A DNA stretch of 45,306 nt from Promineifilum sp. (GTDB lineage Bacteria; Chloroflexota; Anaerolineae; Promineifilales; Promineifilaceae), in assembly GCF_041918635.1 (NCBI RefSeq), contig NZ_JAYRVJ010000009.1:1-45306 (forward strand), written 5' to 3'. The position numbers were made by a program, and so were the translations under genes. The stretch's first letter is position 1, and every line of letters starts with the position of its first letter. The notes beneath the pieces are model-generated. The model was not told where the DNA came from and did not search any database. It saw only the letters and a list, made by a program, of their open reading frames with translations. Positions 16,296 through 40,003 of the stretch are shown here, one piece after another.

Positions 16296-20765
<4,470 letters not shown>

Positions 20766-20828: not shown

Positions 20829-20895
20829 GTAGTCAGGCAATTCATTGCCGTTCTTCACGCCTGTGGCGAAGAACGGCAATGAACTGCCTGACTAC
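20829..20895. repeat. MITE/REP-doublet-like element, family B
   Basis: GTAGTCAGGCAATTCATTGCCGTTCTT..AAGAACGGCAATGAACTGCCTGACTAC. Copies at 24158-24223 and 39938-40003; half copies at 25536-25559 and 39917-39932. Confidence 0.9.
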
Positions 20896-20911: not shown

Positions 20912-21949
20912 CTAGAAATCGCGGCGCAGGAGCATATCGGTCAACTGGCGCAGCGCCGCCGCCCCCGGCTCCACCGGCCGCGCCGCGGCGAGATGGGCCA
21001 GCGCTTCGTCGGAGTAGTCGGCCGCGCGTTCGACGGCATAGGCCCGCGCCCCCGCCTCATCCAGCAGGGCCACCGCGCGGCGCACAAACGTCCTGTCGTC
21101 TTCGGCCGGGGCGTCGTAGAGTTCGCGCAGCGCCGCGCTCCGCTCCAGGGCATAGAGCACCGGCAGCGTCTTCTTGCGCGTGGTGATGTCGGTGGCCGCC
21201 GACTTGCCGGTCAGCGCCTCGTCGCCCCAAATGCCGAGGATGTCATCCTGCACCTGGAAGGCCAGCCCCAGGTTCAGCCCGAAGGCCGCGAAGTGGCTCA
21301 CGCGCGCGTCGTCCGCGCCGGCCACCAGCGCGCCCAGTTCGGCGCACAGGGCGACCAGCACCGCCGTCTTGCCGGTGATCATGGCGACGTACTCCGCGAC
21401 GGCGACGGCCGGCCGCGTCTCAAAGGTCATGTCGGCGTGCTGACCGCGCGTCAGGGCGACCGAGGTCTCGTCGAAGTGGCGCAGCGCCCGCACGACAGTG
21501 GCCGGCGGCACGCCCCGCTCGGCCAGCCGGCCCAGCGCCAGGTGGGCCAGGGCGAACATGCCGTCGCCGGTGTTGATGGCCTGCGGCTGGCCCCACAACG
21601 TCCAGAGGGTGCGCCGGCCGCGGCGGGTGGGGCTGTCATCCTCGATGTCGTCGTGGACGAGGGAGAAGTTGTGCAGGATTTCAATAGCTGCCGCGGCGGG
21701 AACGGCTTGTCGCCAGTCGCCGCCGGCCGCGGCGCAGGCCAGGAGGCAGAGGATGGGGCGAATGCGCTTGCCGCTGTTGCCGCCGGCTGGTTGCAGGGCT
21801 TCGTCGGCCCAGCCCATGTGGTAGTGCATCATGCCGTAGAAGGGGTCGGCCAGGCCGGCGTCCGCGCCATCAGCGCGCAGCACGGCGCGCATCTCGGCTT
21901 CGACAGCCGGCAGGAAGGCGGCGGAAAAGGTGCTCAGTTCGTCGCTCAT
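20912..21949 (-). CDS. Short-chain polyprenyl diphosphate synthase (GGPP/FPP synthase-like)
   Basis: GKRIRP, NFSLVHDDIED..RRG, GKTA and FQVQDDILG motifs. An aromatic residue sits 5 aa before the first aspartate-rich motif. Confidence 0.9.
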   Translation of the reverse strand: MSDELSTFSAAFLPAVEAEMRAVLRADGADAGLADPFYGMMHYHMGWADEALQPAGGNSGKRIRPILCLLACAAAGGDWRQAVPAAAAIEILHNFSLVHDDIEDDSPTRRGRRTLWTLWGQPQAINTGDGMFALAHLALGRLAERGVPPATVVRALRHFDETSVALTRGQHADMTFETRPAVAVAEYVAMITGKTAVLVALCAELGALVAGADDARVSHFAAFGLNLGLAFQVQDDILGIWGDEALTGKSAATDITTRKKTLPVLYALERSAALRELYDAPAEDDRTFVRRAVALLDEAGARAYAVERAADYSDEALAHLAAARPVEPGAAALRQLTDMLLRRDF

Positions 21950-23137: not shown

Positions 23138-23248
23138 AGACGGGTATTATAGCACGCTCGCGCCGTCGCGTACTCCGCTGAACGATGCTAGAATCACGCT
23201 CTTAGTAATCTGCGAAATCGGCGGATCATTCTCCCCCACGTGAGCCCT

Positions 23249-25999
23249 ATGTTGCTCCTGCCGTTCACCTCGACCGACGCCACGCTCCAGACCGCCGGCG
23301 GCAAGGGGGCCAATCTGGCCCGCCTGACGCACGCCGGGTTCCCCGTGCCGCCCGGCTTCATCGCCCCGACGGCCGCCTATCGCGCCTTCGTGGAAGCCAA
23401 TGAGTTAGGCGGCGTCATCGCCGCGTCCCTGACCGGCCTGGCCGCCGACGACGCGGCCCGGCTGGAAGCGGCATCGGCGGCCATTCGCGGGGCCTTCGCA
23501 CGGGGGCGCGTGCCGGAGGAGGTGGCCGCGGCGATTCGGGAGGCGTATAGAGGACTGGCCGGCGGGGACGCCGGCGATCCGAGTGTGGCTGTGCGCTCGT
23601 CGGCCACGCTGGAGGATTTGCCCGACCTGTCTTTCGCCGGGCAGCAGGACACGTTCCTCAACGTGGTGGGCGCGGAGGCGCTGCTGCGGGCGGTGGTGGA
23701 TTGCTGGTCGAGCCTGTGGACGGGGCGGGCCATCGGCTACCGGGCGCGCAACGGCCTGGATCACGAGGGGGCGGCGCTGGCGGTCATCGTGCAGGTCATG
23801 GTTCCCAGCGACGTGTCGGGTGTGCTGTTCACCGCCAACCCGCTGACAGGGTTGCTCAGCGAGTCGGTCATCGACGCCACGTTCGGGTTGGGCGAGGCGC
23901 TGGTGGCCGGGCAGGTAGAGCCGGATCACTTCGTGGTGGACGCGCGCTCCGGCGCGATCCGGTCGGTGGCGCTGGGGGCCAAGGCGGTCGCCACGCGCGG
24001 CCGGCCGGGCGGCGGGGTGGAGACGCGGGCCGAGGACGGCGCGGCGCGGCAGACGCTCGCGCCGGGCGAGATTCGGCGGCTGGTCGAGTTAGGGCAGCGA
24101 GTGCAGGCGGAGTATGGCGCGCCGCAGGATATAGAGTGGGCGCTGGCGCGGCGACATGTAGTCGGGCAATTCATTGCCGTTCCTGGCGAAGGGGAGAAGA
24201 ACGGCGATGAATCGCCTGACTACGAACTCTATCTGCTGCAATCGCGGGCCATCACGTCGCTTTTCCCCGTGCCGGAGGTGTCGTTCGACCCGCTGATCAT
24301 CTGGTTCTCGTTCGGCGCGGCGCAGGGGATGCTGGAGCCGATCACGCCGTTGGGGCGCGACAGCCTGCGCCAACTGCTGGCGGGGGCGGCCGGGCTGTTC
24401 GGGCGGCAGCCCGCGCCCGAGGAACTGCGCGTGTTCGCCGCGGCCGGAGAGCGCATCTGGGTGCGCATCAGCGACCTCATCCGCCACCCGGTCGGCCACC
24501 GCCTGTTCAAGGGTGTGGTCGACTACCTGGAGCCAAGTGTGGGGCAGATCGTCAGCGCCCTGGCCGATGACCCGCGGTTGGGGGCGGGACAGGGGCGGCT
24601 CAAGCTGAGCACGCTGTGGCAGCTGGGCCGCGTCTTTGTGCCGCTCATCGCGCGGATCATCCGCAACGCGGCGCGGCCCGCGGCGGCGAGAGCGCGGCTG
24701 GAGGCCGACATCGAGGCGTACCTGGCCGAGGCCCGTATCCCGGCCGGGGCCGACCGCTTCGAGCGGCTGGGCCACATCGCCGCCTTCCTGCGCGACCGGC
24801 TGGCGCATGGTTTCTCGTTCCTGCTGCCTCGCTTTGTGCCCGTGCTCGGCCCCAGTATGGGGTCGCTGGCCTTACTCAACAAGCTGGCCGGAGACCAACC
24901 GGCGCTAGCGCTGGAAGTGACCCGCGCCCTGCCCCAGAACGTGACGACGGAGATGGACTTGGCGCTGTGGCGGGCGGCGGCGGCCATCCGGGCCGACGCG
25001 GAAGCGGCGGCCTGTTTCGCCGCATTGGACGCGCCCGCGCTGGCCGAGCGCTACTTGCGCGGCGCGCTGCCGCCGGCGGCGCAGACGGCCGTGTCTGGCT
25101 TCCTGGAGCGGTATGGGGCGCGCGGTGTGGGCGAGATCGACATGGGCCGGGCGCGCTGGCGCGAGGAGCCGGCGCCGGTGATGCGCACCCTGCAGAGCTA
25201 CCTCCAGATTGACCCGGCAGCCGCGCCCGACGTGGTGTTTGCGCGCGGCGAGCGGGCGGCGGCCGAGGCGGTGGAGGCGTTGGCCGCCGTCGCCCGCCGC
25301 CAGCGCGGCGGGTGGCTCAAGGAGAAGGTGGCGCGGGCCGCCGCCACGCGCGTCCGGCTGATGATGGGCGCGCGCGAAAGCCCCAAGTTCTTCGCCGTAC
25401 GCGTCATGGGGATCGTTCGTGCGGCGCTGCTGGACGTGGGCGAGGCGTTCGCCGCGGCGGGGACGATTGAGCAGGCCGACGACCTGTTCTTCCTGACCAT
25501 CACTGAATTAGAGAGCCTCTCCCGCAATGAGGTTGGTAGTCAGGCGATTTATCGCCGTCTGATCGCCGAGCGTCGCGCCCTCTACGAGCGCGAGGCGCGC
25601 CGCCGCCAGGTTCCGCGCGTGCTGGTCAGCGACGGCCGGGCCTTCTACGAGGGGCTGGGCGCGCTGAGCGACGCCGGAGATGTCATCATCGGCAGCCCCG
25701 TCTCGCCGGGCGTGGCCGAGGGGGTCGTTCACGTCGTGCTGGATCCGTTCGGGACGCAACTCGCGCCGGGCGAGATTCTGGTTTGTCCCGGCACCGACCC
25801 GGGCTGGACGCCGCTCTTTCTAACTGCTGGCGGGCTCATCACCGAGGTGGGCGGGATGATGACCCACGGCTCGGTGGTGGCGCGGGAGTACGGCATCCCA
25901 GCCGTGGTGGGCGTGCATCAGGCGACGAGCCGGCTGAAGGACGGGCAGCGGATTCGAGTGGATGGCACGCAGGGGCGGATCGTGGTGCTGGACGATTGA
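23249..25999 (+). CDS. PEP-utilising enzyme with rifampin phosphotransferase-like architecture (ATP-grasp, substrate-binding and His-swivel domains)
   Basis: GGKGANL, AVRSSA..EDL..SFAGQ, GLGEALV.G, DIEWA..LQSR.IT, YG.RG.GEID..RW.E.P and TDPGWTPLF..GGMMTHGSVVAREYGIP motifs. Confidence 0.85.
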   Translation: MLLLPFTSTDATLQTAGGKGANLARLTHAGFPVPPGFIAPTAAYRAFVEANELGGVIAASLTGLAADDAARLEAASAAIRGAFARGRVPEEVAAAIREAYRGLAGGDAGDPSVAVRSSATLEDLPDLSFAGQQDTFLNVVGAEALLRAVVDCWSSLWTGRAIGYRARNGLDHEGAALAVIVQVMVPSDVSGVLFTANPLTGLLSESVIDATFGLGEALVAGQVEPDHFVVDARSGAIRSVALGAKAVATRGRPGGGVETRAEDGAARQTLAPGEIRRLVELGQRVQAEYGAPQDIEWALARRHVVGQFIAVPGEGEKNGDESPDYELYLLQSRAITSLFPVPEVSFDPLIIWFSFGAAQGMLEPITPLGRDSLRQLLAGAAGLFGRQPAPEELRVFAAAGERIWVRISDLIRHPVGHRLFKGVVDYLEPSVGQIVSALADDPRLGAGQGRLKLSTLWQLGRVFVPLIARIIRNAARPAAARARLEADIEAYLAEARIPAGADRFERLGHIAAFLRDRLAHGFSFLLPRFVPVLGPSMGSLALLNKLAGDQPALALEVTRALPQNVTTEMDLALWRAAAAIRADAEAAACFAALDAPALAERYLRGALPPAAQTAVSGFLERYGARGVGEIDMGRARWREEPAPVMRTLQSYLQIDPAAAPDVVFARGERAAAEAVEALAAVARRQRGGWLKEKVARAAATRVRLMMGARESPKFFAVRVMGIVRAALLDVGEAFAAAGTIEQADDLFFLTITELESLSRNEVGSQAIYRRLIAERRALYEREARRRQVPRVLVSDGRAFYEGLGALSDAGDVIIGSPVSPGVAEGVVHVVLDPFGTQLAPGEILVCPGTDPGWTPLFLTAGGLITEVGGMMTHGSVVAREYGIPAVVGVHQATSRLKDGQRIRVDGTQGRIVVLDD
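24158..24223. repeat. Family B element inserted in-frame (22 codons) in the PEP-utilising enzyme
   Basis: GTAGTCGGGCAATTCATTGCCGTT..AACGGCGATGAATCGCCTGACTAC is 66 nt and translates as VVGQFIAVPGEGEKNGDESPDY. Confidence 0.9.
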
Positions 26000-27026: not shown

Positions 27027-27030
<4 letters not shown>

Positions 27031-28622
27031 GCGGACTACTGACGACAGACGACGGACGACGGGCAGCGCTCTTTCTGGCTATCGCCGTGATGGTCGGGTT
27101 GGCCGTCGTCCGACTGCCGCTGCCAGTCGCCGCAGGGGCGGTGGCGCTGGCGGCGGCCGTGCTGCTGGCGCTGATCAACCCGCTCTTCGGGCTGGCGCTG
27201 GCGCTGCTGGTCGGGCCGCTGGGGGCGCTGGAGAACGTCGTTCTGGGCAGCGCCCTGCTGGATAGCGGGCAGGCGGCGCTGCTGCTGGCGCTGGCGTCGT
27301 GGATCGGCGGCGGGCTGGCGCGGCGGCGGCTGTGCGTCCCGGCCACGCCGTTCAATGGGCCGTGGCTGCTCTTCGTCGCCGTCGCCGCCCTGGGCCTGTT
27401 GGACGCTTACTCCATCCCGCTGGGTCTGGTCGAACTGCTGAAATGGCTGGAGATGGGCTTGATCGTCTGGCTGATGCTCGACCTGGCCGACGACCCCACG
27501 CGCCGGCCGGTGGGTCGCCCGGCCGTCTTGCGCCTGGTGCTGGCGGCGCTGCTGCTGGCCGGGCTGATCCAGGCGCTCATCGGCGTCTGGCAATTCGGGT
27601 TGCGCGGCGATGGGCCGGAGCACTTCCTCGTCCTGGGCCGCTTCTATCGCGCCTATGGGACGTTCGAGCAGCCCAACCCGTTCGGCGGGTATATGAATTT
27701 GACGGCGTTCCTGGGGGCGGGGGTGGCATTGGGTTATGCCGCGTACCTGGCTGGCGTTAAGAGGAAGAGGAACACAGAGTTACACAGCTCTGTGTTCCTC
27801 TTCTCTGATCACGCCATCATCACACCAACCCAGTCTCGGAGCGCTCATATCATTTGGCTGATTTTTGCCCTATTGTGCGCGGGGGCGGGAACACTGGGGC
27901 TGGTCTTTTCGTGGAGTCGCGGGGCGTGGCTGGGCTTTCTGGCCGGCGGGGCGGTGTTGCTGCTGTTCAGCGCGCGGCGGGTGGCGGTGGGCGCGGCCGT
28001 GGCCGGCGTGGCGGCGGTCGTGCTGGGCGGGGGGCTGTGGCTGGGCGTGTCGGCCGGGTTCGGGCCGGCGCTGTCGGTGGCCGACCGGCTGAGCGGCTTC
28101 GGCGACGAGTTCCGCCTGGGGGACGTGCGCGGCGTGGACATCAACGACGCCAACTACGCCGTGCTGGAGCGGCTGGCCCACTGGCAGGCGGCGGCCGATA
28201 TGGCCCGCGACGACCTGTGGAGCGGCGTCGGCTTCGGCAACTACGCCGCCGCCTATCCCGACTACGCGCTCATCAATTGGCCCGACGCGCTGGGCCACGC
28301 CCACAACTACTACCTCAACCTGTTGGCCGAAGTGGGCGCGCCCGGTTTGCTGGCCTACGCGCTCTTCTGGCTGTTCGTCGTCGGCCAGACGGTGTGGCTG
28401 GCGCGGCGGCTGGCGTGGCCGGAGCGTGGGGTGGCCGTAGGGTTGCTGGCGGCCTGGGCGGCGTTGGCAGTCCACCACCTCGTGGATAAACTATACGTGA
28501 ATAATATCTACATCCACCTGGGCGGGATGCTCGGTCTGCTACAATTGCTTGTCTGGCGTGGGTTTTATGATGTAGGGCGGGTTTCCAAACCCGCCCCTAC
28601 GGACGACATTTGCCCGGTGTAG
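27027..28622 (+). CDS. O-antigen ligase/polymerase-family membrane protein
   Basis: Multiple TM helices; [30 protein letters not shown] and HAHN.YL..LAE.G motifs. The start overlaps the upstream stop. Confidence 0.85.
27764..27803. repeat. Perfect 16-bp inverted repeat inside the ligase gene (family I, related to family E)
   Basis: GAAGAGGAACACAGAG-TTACACAG-CTCTGTGTTCCTCTTC, within a low-GC island in a GC-rich gene. Confidence 0.85.
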
Positions 28623-28643
28623 GGGCGGGTTTCAAACCCGCCC
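28572..28643. repeat. Pair of family A REP-like palindromes
   Basis: GTAGGGCGGGTTTCCAAACCCGCCCCTAC and GTAGGGGCGGGTTTCAAACCCGCCC; they encode the ligase C-terminus and stop. Confidence 0.85.
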
Positions 28644-28719
28644 TGCGAGTGGGCAAGAGTCGCGGGGCCAACGATCAATGAGATGAACCGCTCACAGATG
28701 CGGCACAACGCCTCTCTTG

Positions 28720-28760: not shown

Positions 28761-29324
28761 ATGTCAAAAGTGGGCATGCTAATTACGGACGTTTCAAGCC
28801 GCTTTGGGATTAATCCCAGGGAGGCCAAGCGCTTTGTCAAGTTCCTGATCGTCGGCGCTATCGGCTTTGTGGTCGACTTCGGCTTCTTCAACCTCCTGCT
28901 GAACCCGATGAATGACCTTGTGTCGCCGGGGGCGGCGCTCTACACGCTGCTGGCCGGTATGGGCTTCGGCGACTACTTCATTACCCACCTCGGCCCGACG
29001 CTGGCTTCATCCATCTCGTTCGTCGCCGCCGTGTTCAGCAACTTCCTGTGGAACCGCTACTGGACGTACCCCGACTCGCGCTCCCGCTCCCGCCGCCGGC
29101 AGTTCACCATGTTCTTCCTGGTCAGCATCGTCGGCGTGCTCATCCGTATCCCCATCGTCTTCCTGATGACGCCCCTCTTCCGCTCGTTCATCAGCAGCAT
29201 CGGGCCGCTCCAGGCGTACACGACGCGCCTGGCAGACAACCTGTCGCTGGGCGTGGCGGTGGTCGTCGTCCTGTTCTGGAACTTCTTCGCCAACCGGCAC
29301 TGGACCTATAACGACGTCGAGTGA
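28761..29324 (+). CDS. GtrA-family flippase-like protein
   Basis: RFVKFLIVGAIGFVVDFG, NFLWNRYWT and WNFFANRHWT motifs. The start lies in 28761-28776. Confidence 0.85.
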   Translation: MSKVGMLITDVSSRFGINPREAKRFVKFLIVGAIGFVVDFGFFNLLLNPMNDLVSPGAALYTLLAGMGFGDYFITHLGPTLASSISFVAAVFSNFLWNRYWTYPDSRSRSRRRQFTMFFLVSIVGVLIRIPIVFLMTPLFRSFISSIGPLQAYTTRLADNLSLGVAVVVVLFWNFFANRHWTYNDVE

Positions 29325-30517
29325 AGCGCGGCGCGACCATCGGCTTCGACGTGACCGCGGCCCTGACGCAGGGGGGCGGCATCGGCCGCTACACCCGCGA
29401 ACTGATCCACGCCCTGGTCAGTGCCGCGCCGCAGTATCGGTATACGCTCTTCTCCGCCCGACCGCCGGCCGCGCCGCCCGTACCCGACTCGCTGCCGGCC
29501 GCGGCCCACGTGGCGCACCGGCCGGCCCCGGTGGACGAGCGCTGGCTCTACCGGCTGTGGTATCGCGCCAACCTGCCACTGCCTGTCCAGTTTTTCACCG
29601 GGCCGATTGACCTGTTCCACTCGCCCGACTTCGTGCTGCCGCCGGTGCGCGGTGACATCCCCACGCTGCTGACTGTCCATGATCTGTCCTTCATCCACTA
29701 CCCGGAGACGTTTCCGGCGCGGCTGGTGGTCTATCTGAACCGCGTCGTGCCCCGGTCGGTGGCGCGGGCTGGTCACATCCTGGCCGACTCCCAGGCCACG
29801 CGGCGTGACCTGGAGGCGGTGTGGGGGGTGTCGCCGGGCAAGGTGACGGTGCTCTACAGCGGCGTCAACCCGCGCTTCCGGCCGGTGCGCGACCTGGCGG
29901 CGCTGGCCGCCGTGCGCGCCCGCTACGGCCTGGGCAACCGGCCCTACGTGCTGACCGTCGGCACGGTGCAGCCGCGCAAGAATTACGAGATGCTGGTGCG
30001 CGCCTTCGCGCCGCTGGCCGAGCGCCACCCGCACACGCTGGTCATCGCCGGCGGGCGGGGTTGGCTGGTGGAGGGGCTGCTGGCCGAGATCGCGCGGCTG
30101 GGGCTGGGCGACCGGGTGCAGCTGGCCGGCTTCGTGGACGATGCCGACCTGCCCGCACTGTACTCGGCGGCCGACCTGTTCGTCTTCCCCAGCCTCTATG
30201 AGGGGTTCGGCCTGCCGCTGCTGGAGGCAATGGCCTGCGGCGCGCCGGTGGTCACGTCCGACGCCTCCAGCCTGCCGGAGGTGGTGCGGACGGACGGCGC
30301 GGCCGCGGCGCTGGCCCTGTCGCCCCACGACGAGGCGGGCTGGACGGCAGCGATGGATAGACTGCTGTCGGACGAGGTGGCGCGGCGCGCGTTGGCCGCG
30401 GCCGGCCCGGTGCAGGCGGCGCGGTTCAGCTGGGAGCGGGCGGCGGGGGAGTTGGCAGACTTGTATGCCACACTTCTGGCAGACCTCAGAGGTTTGCCGC
30501 AAACCTCTGAGGTCTAG
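29321..30517 (+). CDS. GT4 glycosyltransferase
   Basis: GGIGRY, TVHDL, VGTVQPRKN and FPSLYEGFGLPLLEAMACG motifs. Confidence 0.92.
   Translation: MKRGATIGFDVTAALTQGGGIGRYTRELIHALVSAAPQYRYTLFSARPPAAPPVPDSLPAAAHVAHRPAPVDERWLYRLWYRANLPLPVQFFTGPIDLFHSPDFVLPPVRGDIPTLLTVHDLSFIHYPETFPARLVVYLNRVVPRSVARAGHILADSQATRRDLEAVWGVSPGKVTVLYSGVNPRFRPVRDLAALAAVRARYGLGNRPYVLTVGTVQPRKNYEMLVRAFAPLAERHPHTLVIAGGRGWLVEGLLAEIARLGLGDRVQLAGFVDDADLPALYSAADLFVFPSLYEGFGLPLLEAMACGAPVVTSDASSLPEVVRTDGAAAALALSPHDEAGWTAAMDRLLSDEVARRALAAAGPVQAARFSWERAAGELADLYATLLADLRGLPQTSEV
30481..30515. repeat. Family D variant palindrome read by both convergent genes
   Basis: AGACCTCAGAGGTTT-GCCGC-AAACCTCTGAGGTCT. Confidence 0.8.
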
Positions 30518-38534: not shown

Positions 38535-39941
38535 GTGCCGACCACTATTGCCCCTCCCGCCAGCGCCTTGCGCGACTTGCCCAGTGTGGATCGTTTGCTC
38601 CGCGCTCCCGGCGCGGACGAACTGGCCGCGGCCTACGGCCGGCCACTGGCGACCGAGGCCCTGCGCGCCGCGCTGGATGAGGCCCGTGCCGCCCTGCGTG
38701 ACGGCCGCGAGGATGAGGCCCTGCCCGATTGGGAACTGGTTGTCGGCGCGCGGGCCTGGCTGGAGAGCCTGCTGGCCCCCACACTCCGGCCGGTCATCAA
38801 CGCCACGGGCATCATCGTCCACACCAACCTGGGCCGCGCCCCACTCAGCGACGACGCCCTGGCGGCGGTGGCCGCCGTCTCGTCCGGCTACTCGACGCTG
38901 GAATACGACCTGGAGGAGGGGCGCCGCGGCTCGCGCGCCGTCCACGCCGAGCGCCTGCTGGCGCGGCTGGTGGGCGCGGAGGCGGCGCTCGTCGTCAACA
39001 ACAACGCGGCGGCCGTCCTGTTGCTGCTGACTGCCCTCTGCCGCGGGCGCGAAGTCATCATTAGCCGCGGCCAACTGGTGGAGATCGGCGGCGGCTTCCG
39101 CATCCCGGAAGTGCTGGCCCAATCGGGGGCGCGTCTGGTCGAGGTGGGCACGACCAACCGCACGTACCGGCGCGACTACGCCGAGGCCATCACCGAGGAC
39201 ACCGCGGCCATCCTGGTCGTCCACCACTCCAACTACCAGATTACCGGCTTTACCAGCCAGCCGGAACTGGCCGAATTGGCCGAACTGGCCCATGAACGCG
39301 ACCTGTGGCTGCTGTTCGATCAGGGCAGCGGCGCGCTGCTCGACGTAGCCCCCTACGGCCTGGAGCCGGAGCCAACCGTGCCCGACGGCCTGCGCGCCGG
39401 CTGTGACGTGGTCGCCTTCAGCGGCGATAAGCTGCTGGGCGGCCCACAGGCGGGCATCCTGTGTGGCCGGGCCGACCTGGTAGCGCGCCTGAAGCGACAC
39501 CCACTGGCCCGCGCCGTCCGCGCTGACAAAATGGCCCTGGCGGCCCTAACGGCGACGCTAGGCCACTATCTGACTGGACAGCCGGAGCGCGTGCCCGTCT
39601 GGGGCATGATCGCCCGACCGGCGGCCGAGATCGCCGCCGAGGCCGAGGCGTGGGCGGCCCATCTAACGCGGGCCGGCCTGCGCGCCGAGACGTTGCCGGG
39701 CGAATCGCGCGTCGGCGGCGGCAGTTTGCCCGGCGCGAGCCTGCCGACGCGGCTGGTGGCTGTGACGCCGGACGGGCTGAGCGCCGAGGCATTCGCCGCG
39801 CGGCTGCGGGCCGGCCGCCGGCCGGTCATTGCCCGCATCCAGGACGATCGCCTGCTGCTCGATCCGCGCACTGTGCTGCCGGGTCAAGCGGAGGCCCTGC
39901 TGCGGGCCGTCGAGCGGACGGCGATGAATCGCGGCTCGTAG
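38535..39941 (+). CDS. selA: L-seryl-tRNA(Sec) selenium transferase
   Basis: LPSVD, VINATG...HTNLGRAPL, VNNNAAAV, SRGQLVEIGGGFRIP, EVGTTN and FSGDKLLGGPQAG motifs. Confidence 0.95.
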   Translation: MPTTIAPPASALRDLPSVDRLLRAPGADELAAAYGRPLATEALRAALDEARAALRDGREDEALPDWELVVGARAWLESLLAPTLRPVINATGIIVHTNLGRAPLSDDALAAVAAVSSGYSTLEYDLEEGRRGSRAVHAERLLARLVGAEAALVVNNNAAAVLLLLTALCRGREVIISRGQLVEIGGGFRIPEVLAQSGARLVEVGTTNRTYRRDYAEAITEDTAAILVVHHSNYQITGFTSQPELAELAELAHERDLWLLFDQGSGALLDVAPYGLEPEPTVPDGLRAGCDVVAFSGDKLLGGPQAGILCGRADLVARLKRHPLARAVRADKMALAALTATLGHYLTGQPERVPVWGMIARPAAEIAAEAEAWAAHLTRAGLRAETLPGESRVGGGSLPGASLPTRLVAVTPDGLSAEAFAARLRAGRRPVIARIQDDRLLLDPRTVLPGQAEALLRAVERTAMNRGS

Positions 39942-40003
39942 TCAGACAATTCATTGCCGTTCTTCCGGCTCGCCAGAAGAACGGCAATGTATTGCCTGAC
40001 TAC
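39917..40003. repeat. Family B element (39938-40003) preceded by a half copy
   Basis: GTAGTCAGACAATTCATTGCCGTTCTT..AAGAACGGCAATGTATTGCCTGACTAC; its GTAG contains the selA stop. Confidence 0.88.

What the first reader, a model, noticed from the sequence alone, without database searches (positions are those of the whole stretch)
24158..24223. Complete palindromic element translated in-frame inside an ATP-grasp enzyme
Seen: a family B copy of exactly 66 nt (GTAG..CTAC) sits in codon register between DIEWALARRH and ELYLLQSR, adding VVGQFIAVPGEGEKNGDESPDY. In PEP-synthase/RPH homologues this spacer is normally only a few residues. The intergenic sister at 20829 is 67 nt and would shift the frame. 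This parallels the Rickettsia palindromic elements that create new protein loops (established for Rickettsia; I do not know of a description in this lineage).
Basis: partly seen in the sequence, partly recalled or inferred. Interest (0 to 1): 0.8.

Follow-up and report, generated by a model that had tools for sequence, protein, structure and literature searches.

The report
REP doublet read inside an enzyme

Summary
The 66-nt element (24158-24223) is an inverted pair of GTAG-type REP repeats (REPIN-like), in frame in an RPH/PEP-synthase-like gene. The net gain is 23 residues, not 22: 118 of 119 homologues have a 9-residue spacer against 32 here. AlphaFold puts the insert in a low-confidence loop at a beta-hairpin tip, and the catalytic residues are intact.

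The family has 208 arms in this genome and is nearly absent from 22 same-genus genomes. In three other genomes it flanks a REP-associated tyrosine transposase. About 17 copies are read in frame inside genes, including IleRS, ValRS and a second site in this gene, and no gene-splitting copy was seen.

The 66-versus-67 argument fails: 66 nt is simply the commonest doublet length, and a 67-nt copy is also in frame elsewhere. In-gene GTAG REP dimers adding 20-30 residues are published (PMC3733652), and this scan noted similar cases in other Chloroflexota. Expression is not shown.

One extra lead: the same loops are hit repeatedly in relatives, and single arms sometimes replace host codons instead of adding to them. 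Verdict: new member of a known kind.

The parts
24158..24223 (+). GTAG-type REP doublet (two inverted arms of about 25 nt around a 16-nt loop, GTAG outside), in frame; residues V304-Y325 of the 916-aa protein P0001
24224..24227 (+). Family-conserved 4-nt outer flank of the right arm; supplies codon E326. The left arm lacks the matching flank.
   Evidence: G at position -4 in 133 of 136 doublet ends; contigs of other copies leave the stretch at 24227
23240..25999 (+). Host gene: RPH/PEP-synthase-like swivelling phosphotransferase (ATP-grasp N-domain, C-terminal His-swivel domain), substrate unknown; the called protein starts at 23249
   Evidence: Pfam PPDK_N and PEP-utilizers; below NCBIfam RPH cut-off; fold match to RPH-Lm, TM 0.77
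25536..25557 (+). Second family-B element in the same gene: a single arm, in frame (GSQAIYRR), net +3 residues against P0002
20829..20895 (.). Intergenic sister doublet, 67 nt, between the convergent ORFs 16296-20765 (rpoC-like, by sequence) and 20912-21949 (polyprenyl synthetase)
39938..40003 (.). Sister doublet, 66 nt, whose TAG ends the upstream gene

Best explanation
The element is a GTAG-type REP doublet that was likely inserted by a REP-associated tyrosine transposase (RAYT), sits in frame at the tip of a predicted beta-hairpin of the ATP-grasp domain, and is probably tolerated as a near-neutral, predicted-disordered 23-residue loop. Shown: identity and copy number of the repeat, reading frame, net +23 residues, conserved catalytic residues, and a RAYT beside this repeat family in other genomes. 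Inferred: RAYT-driven insertion with a few bases lost or changed at the left end; selection removing frame-breaking copies; the protein being made and active; slow trimming of in-gene doublets to single arms.
For: Family of 208 arms, 72 doublets and 64 singles. It is lineage-specific: 168 matches here, and 8, 1, 1 and none in 19 of 22 same-genus genomes. Family-B arms flank ORFs above the NF047646 RAYT cut-off in L134, L135 and L144. Spacer 9 in 118 of 119 homologues. AlphaFold mean pLDDT 87.5, residues 304-319 below 50, strands 293-301 and 325-334 intact. K19, R116, E296, R709, E710, K713 and H873 are invariant and T135 nearly invariant in 103 aligned proteins; they map to RPH-Lm Lys22, Arg117, Glu297, Arg666, Glu667, Lys670, His825 and Thr136. 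The turn takes other inserts: +13 in P0002 and +28 in L096. In-frame internal copies: 2 of 72 doublets and 13 of 64 singles by the strict filter, in genes including IleRS and ValRS. 24 copies supply a stop codon and none visibly splits a gene. Both junctions are unchanged in contigs of runs X2, X5, X8 and X18. Precedent: PMC3733652.
Against: Expression is not shown: the RNA-labelled runs cover genes and spacers evenly and look like DNA. No cognate RAYT was found in this assembly: its two RAYT-like genes are flanked by another GTAG family and are about 27-30% identical to the family-B RAYTs; the assembly is in 827 contigs and 94.7% complete. No close empty allele was found, so exact insertion ends are unknown. 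The gene was not found in 22 of 22 same-genus genomes at E<=1e-30 and carries two repeat insertions, which would also fit relaxed selection. Low pLDDT is expected for a stretch with no alignment depth and does not prove disorder.
Confidence: 0.8

Rival explanations
1. The gene is dispensable or decaying, and collects repeats because selection on it is weak; the in-frame state is luck (about one in three, further limited by stop codons in the arms).
For: Two family-B insertions in one gene. Gene not found in 22 same-genus genomes. No expression evidence.
Against: Open frame over 919 codons with all catalytic residues. A depth-4 contig about 90% identical shares the right junction and shows 7 synonymous and 6 non-synonymous codon changes among the 14 of 28 differences listed. 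The same repeat sits in frame in IleRS and ValRS. All sampled words are present in 20 runs from 8 studies, 15 of them possible sources of this DNA.
Confidence: 0.1
2. The insert is selected for a function, either as an mRNA hairpin that tunes translation or stability, or as a loop that modulates docking of the His-swivel domain next to the ATP site.
For: It lies between the strands carrying E296 and Q331/R333. An insert with a similar right end (SPGY before KLYLLQSR) is in P0002 at 74% identity, so something may have persisted here a long time.
Against: Length and sequence differ between the two (23 versus 13 residues). 118 homologues do without it. The hairpin is not unusually stable: rank 36 of 48 core doublets as RNA.
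Confidence: 0.07
3. The insert is an assembly artefact caused by a collapsed repeat.
For: The source is a fragmented metagenome assembly, and public contigs break at the repeat arm.
Against: Separate assemblies give both junctions with 0-3 differences. A second 916-aa cluster member has the same loop. The 16-nt spacer differs from those of the sister copies seen.
Confidence: 0.02

Closest known systems
Intragenic GTAG REP dimers and singles (Di Nocera, De Gregorio and Rocco 2013, PMC3733652)
   Same: GTAG-tagged short palindromes in inverted dimers; in-ORF copies encode 20-30 residues; a single and a dimer can sit in one gene; TAG ends often supply stop codons; RAYT association.
   Different: The only Chloroflexi family named in the parts I read is T. 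roseum GTAG-23. The consensus sequences are in Figure 1, which is not held, so I could not match family B to GTAG-1 to 24. No orthologue-level junction analysis appears in the parts read.
REPINs of Pseudomonas fluorescens SBW25 (Bertels and Rainey 2011, PMC3116915)
   Same: Inverted REP doublets forming hairpins, hundreds of copies, RAYT-linked, singlets read as decay products.
   Different: Described as extragenic; here 2 of 72 doublets and about 15 of 64 singles are inside genes, and no cognate RAYT was found in this assembly.
Rickettsia palindromic elements (RPE; Ogata et al. 2000, seen only as cited in PMC3733652 and PMC3184786)
   Same: Palindromic repeats in frame inside protein genes.
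   Different: RPEs are listed as about 105-146 nt (PMC3184786) and the short RPE-4 and RPE-6 are CGTC-type (PMC3733652); this one is 66-70 nt, GTAG-type and RAYT-linked.
Rifamycin phosphotransferase RPH-Lm and PEP-synthase-like swivelling enzymes (host protein; PMC4844700)
   Same: Domain order, fold (TM 0.77 to 5hv1), and ATP-site and His/Arg-Glu catalytic residues.
   Different: About 30% identity, below the curated RPH cut-off (559 versus 999 bits); substrate unknown.

Membership tests
GTAG REP / REPIN | Short imperfect palindrome with terminal GTAG | tested here: met
GTAG REP / REPIN | High copy number, mostly extragenic | tested here: met
   208 arms; 95 of 136 elements intergenic or other, 24 supply a stop, 2 read through at a C-terminus, 15 internal
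GTAG REP / REPIN | Inverted doublets forming a hairpin, with a typical length | tested here: met
   72 doublets (144 of 208 arms), 35 of them 66-68 nt; fold z -6.8 to -13.6
GTAG REP / REPIN | Same repeat flanks a RAYT gene | tested here: met
   Met in three other genomes (L134, L135/L136, L144/L145); not found in this assembly
GTAG REP / REPIN | Mobilisation by RAYT shown (excision or insertion intermediates, empty allele) | tested here: inconclusive
   No empty allele in contigs of 7 runs; contigs drop rare variants
Protein-coding palindromic repeats (RPE-like) | In-frame insertion relative to homologues, in several unrelated genes | tested here: met
   +23 here; +8 to +11 ValRS, +10 or +11 DUF512 protein, +3 sigma factor, 0 IleRS
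Protein-coding palindromic repeats (RPE-like) | Insert transcribed and translated, protein active | tested here: inconclusive
   RNA-labelled runs look like DNA; no proteomics available
Rickettsia RPE families proper | RPE length (about 105-146 nt) or CGTC tag | tested here: not met
   66-70 nt, GTAG tag
Rifamycin phosphotransferase (host) | Score above curated NF041857 cut-off | tested here: not met
   559 versus 999 bits
Rifamycin phosphotransferase (host) | ATP-grasp, substrate domain, C-terminal His-swivel order with catalytic residues | tested here: met

The most novel reading that the evidence does not exclude
In these Chloroflexota certain protein loops are recurrent landing sites. REP doublets insert, are trimmed to single arms that favour the hydrophilic NGDESPDY frame, and can overwrite host codons with little or no length change, even in an essential gene such as IleRS. 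Different repeat families take turns at the same loop in sister species. The 24158 copy would be an early, untrimmed stage, and P0002 a trimmed stage of the same site.
Probability: 0.3. Interest if true: 0.55.

Novelty: new member of a known kind. Interest (0 to 1): 0.3.

Why it matters
As a single case it is one more example of a published phenomenon, in a lineage where my searches found no paper on it. Its value is as material. The repeat family expanded in one species, so sister species give reference sites for IleRS, ValRS, a sigma factor and other proteins. That allows direct study of how REP/RAYT insertion treats its target, of whether singles arise from doublets, and of how selfish DNA seeds new loop sequence in proteins.

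Tried and rejected
Empty allele of the host gene: none at high identity. 0 of 22 same-genus genomes; best about 75% over flank DNA among 159 family genomes; best 55% protein identity among 80 metagenome loci kept of 367. The DNA of P0002 could not be obtained, so the nature of its insert is read from the peptide only.

Expression: four RNA-labelled runs gave flat depth over genes and spacers and contigs of 85-143 kb, so they were rejected as evidence. Two joints in run X8 that skip the element have short sides and other letters between; I took them as distant homologues.

Exact doublet pattern across GTDB: 0 matches; the single-arm pattern gave 14 stretches.

The first census missed some arms through a best-match option and was redone by mismatch counting; the flank consensus comes (68 doublets). 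The RAYT translation was in the wrong frame and was redone.

No orthologue of the C254 gene in 5 genomes. The penicillin-amidase site could not be parsed in orthologues.

I considered a compensating 1-nt frameshift just upstream of the element, since host-like codons appear in a shifted frame. It cannot be tested without a close empty allele, and similar stretches at other sites are equally read as spacer remnants, so I do not claim it.

Paper searches for the cyanobacterial repeats and RPE primary papers returned nothing relevant. The look-up of earlier findings in this genome was empty.

Full report
Observation. The 66 nt at 24158-24223 run GTAG..CTAC and start on a codon boundary of ORF 23240-25999 (+). 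They encode VVGQFIAVPGEGEKNGDESPDY as stated and fold into one long hairpin (z -6.8). Sisters in the window lie at 20829 (67 nt), 39938 (66 nt) and 25536, a single arm inside the same gene.

The repeat. Mismatch counting over the 4.9-Mb assembly found 208 arms at <=3 mismatches (controls 0), forming 72 inverted doublets and 64 singles. Doublet ends carry a conserved 4-nt outer flank (G at -4 in 133 of 136 ends). The copy in question has it on the right, to 24227, where contigs of other copies also diverge, but not on the left. The family is a species-level expansion: 168 matches here, 8, 1 and 1 in three and none in 19 of 22 same-genus genomes. An exact single-arm scan of GTDB gave 14 stretches in Anaerolineae, Ardenticatenaceae, other Chloroflexota, Poribacteria, Armatimonadota, Ca. 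Aquidulcis and unnamed bacteria. In three of those genomes the arms flank an ORF above the NCBIfam cut-off for REP-associated tyrosine transposase. This assembly has two RAYT-like genes, both flanked by a different GTAG family, and no close relative of the family-B RAYT was found. The lineage is inferred as Chloroflexota (Anaerolineae-like) from homologue labels; the sequence occurs in sludge and wastewater runs.

The host and the site. The protein has PPDK_N and PEP-utilizer domains in RPH order, scores below the curated RPH and PEP-synthase cut-offs, and folds like RPH-Lm (TM 0.77). The DIEW-to-LQSR spacer is 32 residues here. It is 9 in 118 of 119 homologues, 9 or 10 in all 25 family loci parsed (29 fetched; one more shows 10 in the alignment, two lack the region, one was not extracted), and 9 or 10 in 51 of 80 metagenome loci (one has 37, 28 lacked the motif). 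The net gain is therefore 23 residues. In the model the insert is a low-confidence loop (304-319 below pLDDT 50) between intact strands 293-301 and 325-334. Residues matching RPH-Lm Lys22, Arg117, Thr136, Glu297, Arg666, Glu667, Lys670 and His825 are kept. The closest homologue, P0002 (74% identity), has its own 13-residue insert at the same turn ending SPGY-K-LYLLQSR, against SPDY-E-LYLLQSR here. A depth-4 contig about 90% identical begins with the last 16 nt of the element and its flank. Together these suggest, without proving, that an insertion here is older than this strain or has recurred.

Genome-wide count. With a coding model trained on the genome, 2 of 72 doublets and 13 of 64 singles are read through inside long coding frames; 2 more are read through at a C-terminus, 24 supply the upstream gene's stop, and 95 are intergenic or other. 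A looser filter plus Pfam adds three singles, and I dropped one 3-mismatch hit as likely chance, giving 15. Of 16 host ORFs scanned, 14 had Pfam matches, among them IleRS, ValRS, an ECF sigma factor and a penicillin amidase. Singles are more often intragenic than doublets (15 of 64 versus 2 of 72, Fisher p 4e-4). Their reading frames split 9/3/3/0, with the hydrophilic NGDESPDY frame most common and the hydrophobic VVRRFIA frame absent (p about 0.01). Both tests are post hoc on a hand-trimmed set. I saw no copy that splits a gene, but the 24 stop-supplying copies were not checked against homologues for short truncations.

Orthologue comparisons. Single arms add 8-11 residues in ValRS (18 of 20 loci parsed), 10-11 in the DUF512 protein and 3 in the sigma factor (4 orthologues each), and 3 at the second site of the host gene. 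In IleRS they add nothing: the arm occupies an 18-residue loop that is also 18 residues in 11 of 21 orthologues, while 3 orthologues carry unrelated repeat-like or hairpin DNA of 28, 29 and 47 residues there, and 7 were not parsed. The second host-gene site also has long inserts in several homologues. These orthologues are 65-85% identical in DNA, too distant to fix junction bases, so replacement and hot-spot use are inferred.

Population and expression. Twenty runs in 8 studies hold all sampled words; 15 may be the source of this DNA. Contigs laid from 7 runs show both junctions and no empty allele. The RNA-labelled runs behave like DNA and do not show transcription.

Mechanism. Most likely a RAYT moved the doublet into the gene, with a few bases lost or changed at the left end and the frame preserved. 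The site is a hairpin tip that takes inserts, so the allele persisted as a near-neutral loop. Frame-breaking copies are presumably purged, and in-gene doublets probably decay to single arms. Identity, frame, size, fold context and RAYT linkage in other genomes are shown; the insertion event, translation and neutrality are inferred.

Comparison with what is known. PMC3733652 (seen: passages, section 15, part 1 of 4 of section 4, part 1 of 3 of supplementary file 3; figures not held) reports GTAG repeats in Chloroflexi and intragenic REPs, of which more than half are dimers or groups encoding 20-30 residues. It lists dozens of Opitutus terrae genes, some with a single and a dimer. The unread parts of that supplement could hold Chloroflexi rows. 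PMC3116915 (passages) defines REPINs and treats singlets as decay products. PMC3184786 (passages) reviews in-frame repeats including RPEs. PMC4844700 (passages) gives the RPH catalytic residues. The RPE primary papers I did not see. A search for Anaerolineae with repetitive extragenic palindromic found 0 papers, and searches showed none on this lineage in their listings; the library lacks most subscription papers. Earlier unchecked notes of this scan report similar in-frame repeats in other Chloroflexota.

Verdict. Real, well supported and of a known kind; interest 0.3. The bolder reading, recurrent overwriting of protein loops by rotating repeat families, remains open at about 0.3.

Noticed in passing
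G000:C294 (L115) and L148, L153, L167: The IleRS loop holding a family-B arm has no net length change here, and three sister species carry unrelated repeat-like or hairpin inserts at the same loop.
   Followed up: partly
window 27767-27800: A different hairpin (13-bp arms) lies in frame inside ORF 27027-28622; the same motif is nested inside family-B doublets at C198 and C747.
   Followed up: no
window 28569-28648 and 30481-30517: Two other palindrome families form the last codons of ORFs 27027-28622 and 29321-30517.
   Followed up: no
G000:C254:2035-2101 (L119): A 67-nt family-B doublet is read in frame inside a PMT_2-type glycosyltransferase gene; no orthologue in 5 genomes tried.
   Followed up: partly
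L139:1201-1222 and L147:1201-1222: Family-B arms paired with related arms lie in frames open for 150 nt on each side, in an Anaerolineae and an Armatimonadota genome; host genes not identified by a family scan.
   Followed up: no
L096: A distant homologue of the host enzyme has an unrelated 28-residue insert at the same hairpin turn.
   Followed up: no
G000:C335 (L032) and G000:C224 (L228): Two RAYT-like genes, 53% identical, flanked by tandem or paired arms of another GTAG family.
   Followed up: partly
L130-L133 (G039): In this relative, family-B arms pair with a different GTAG arm, and occur as two or four tandem units at two loci.
   Followed up: no
window 23240-25999: The host gene was not found in 22 same-genus genomes at E<=1e-30 but has about 50-58% homologues in other genera of the family: patchy, substrate unknown.
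   Followed up: partly
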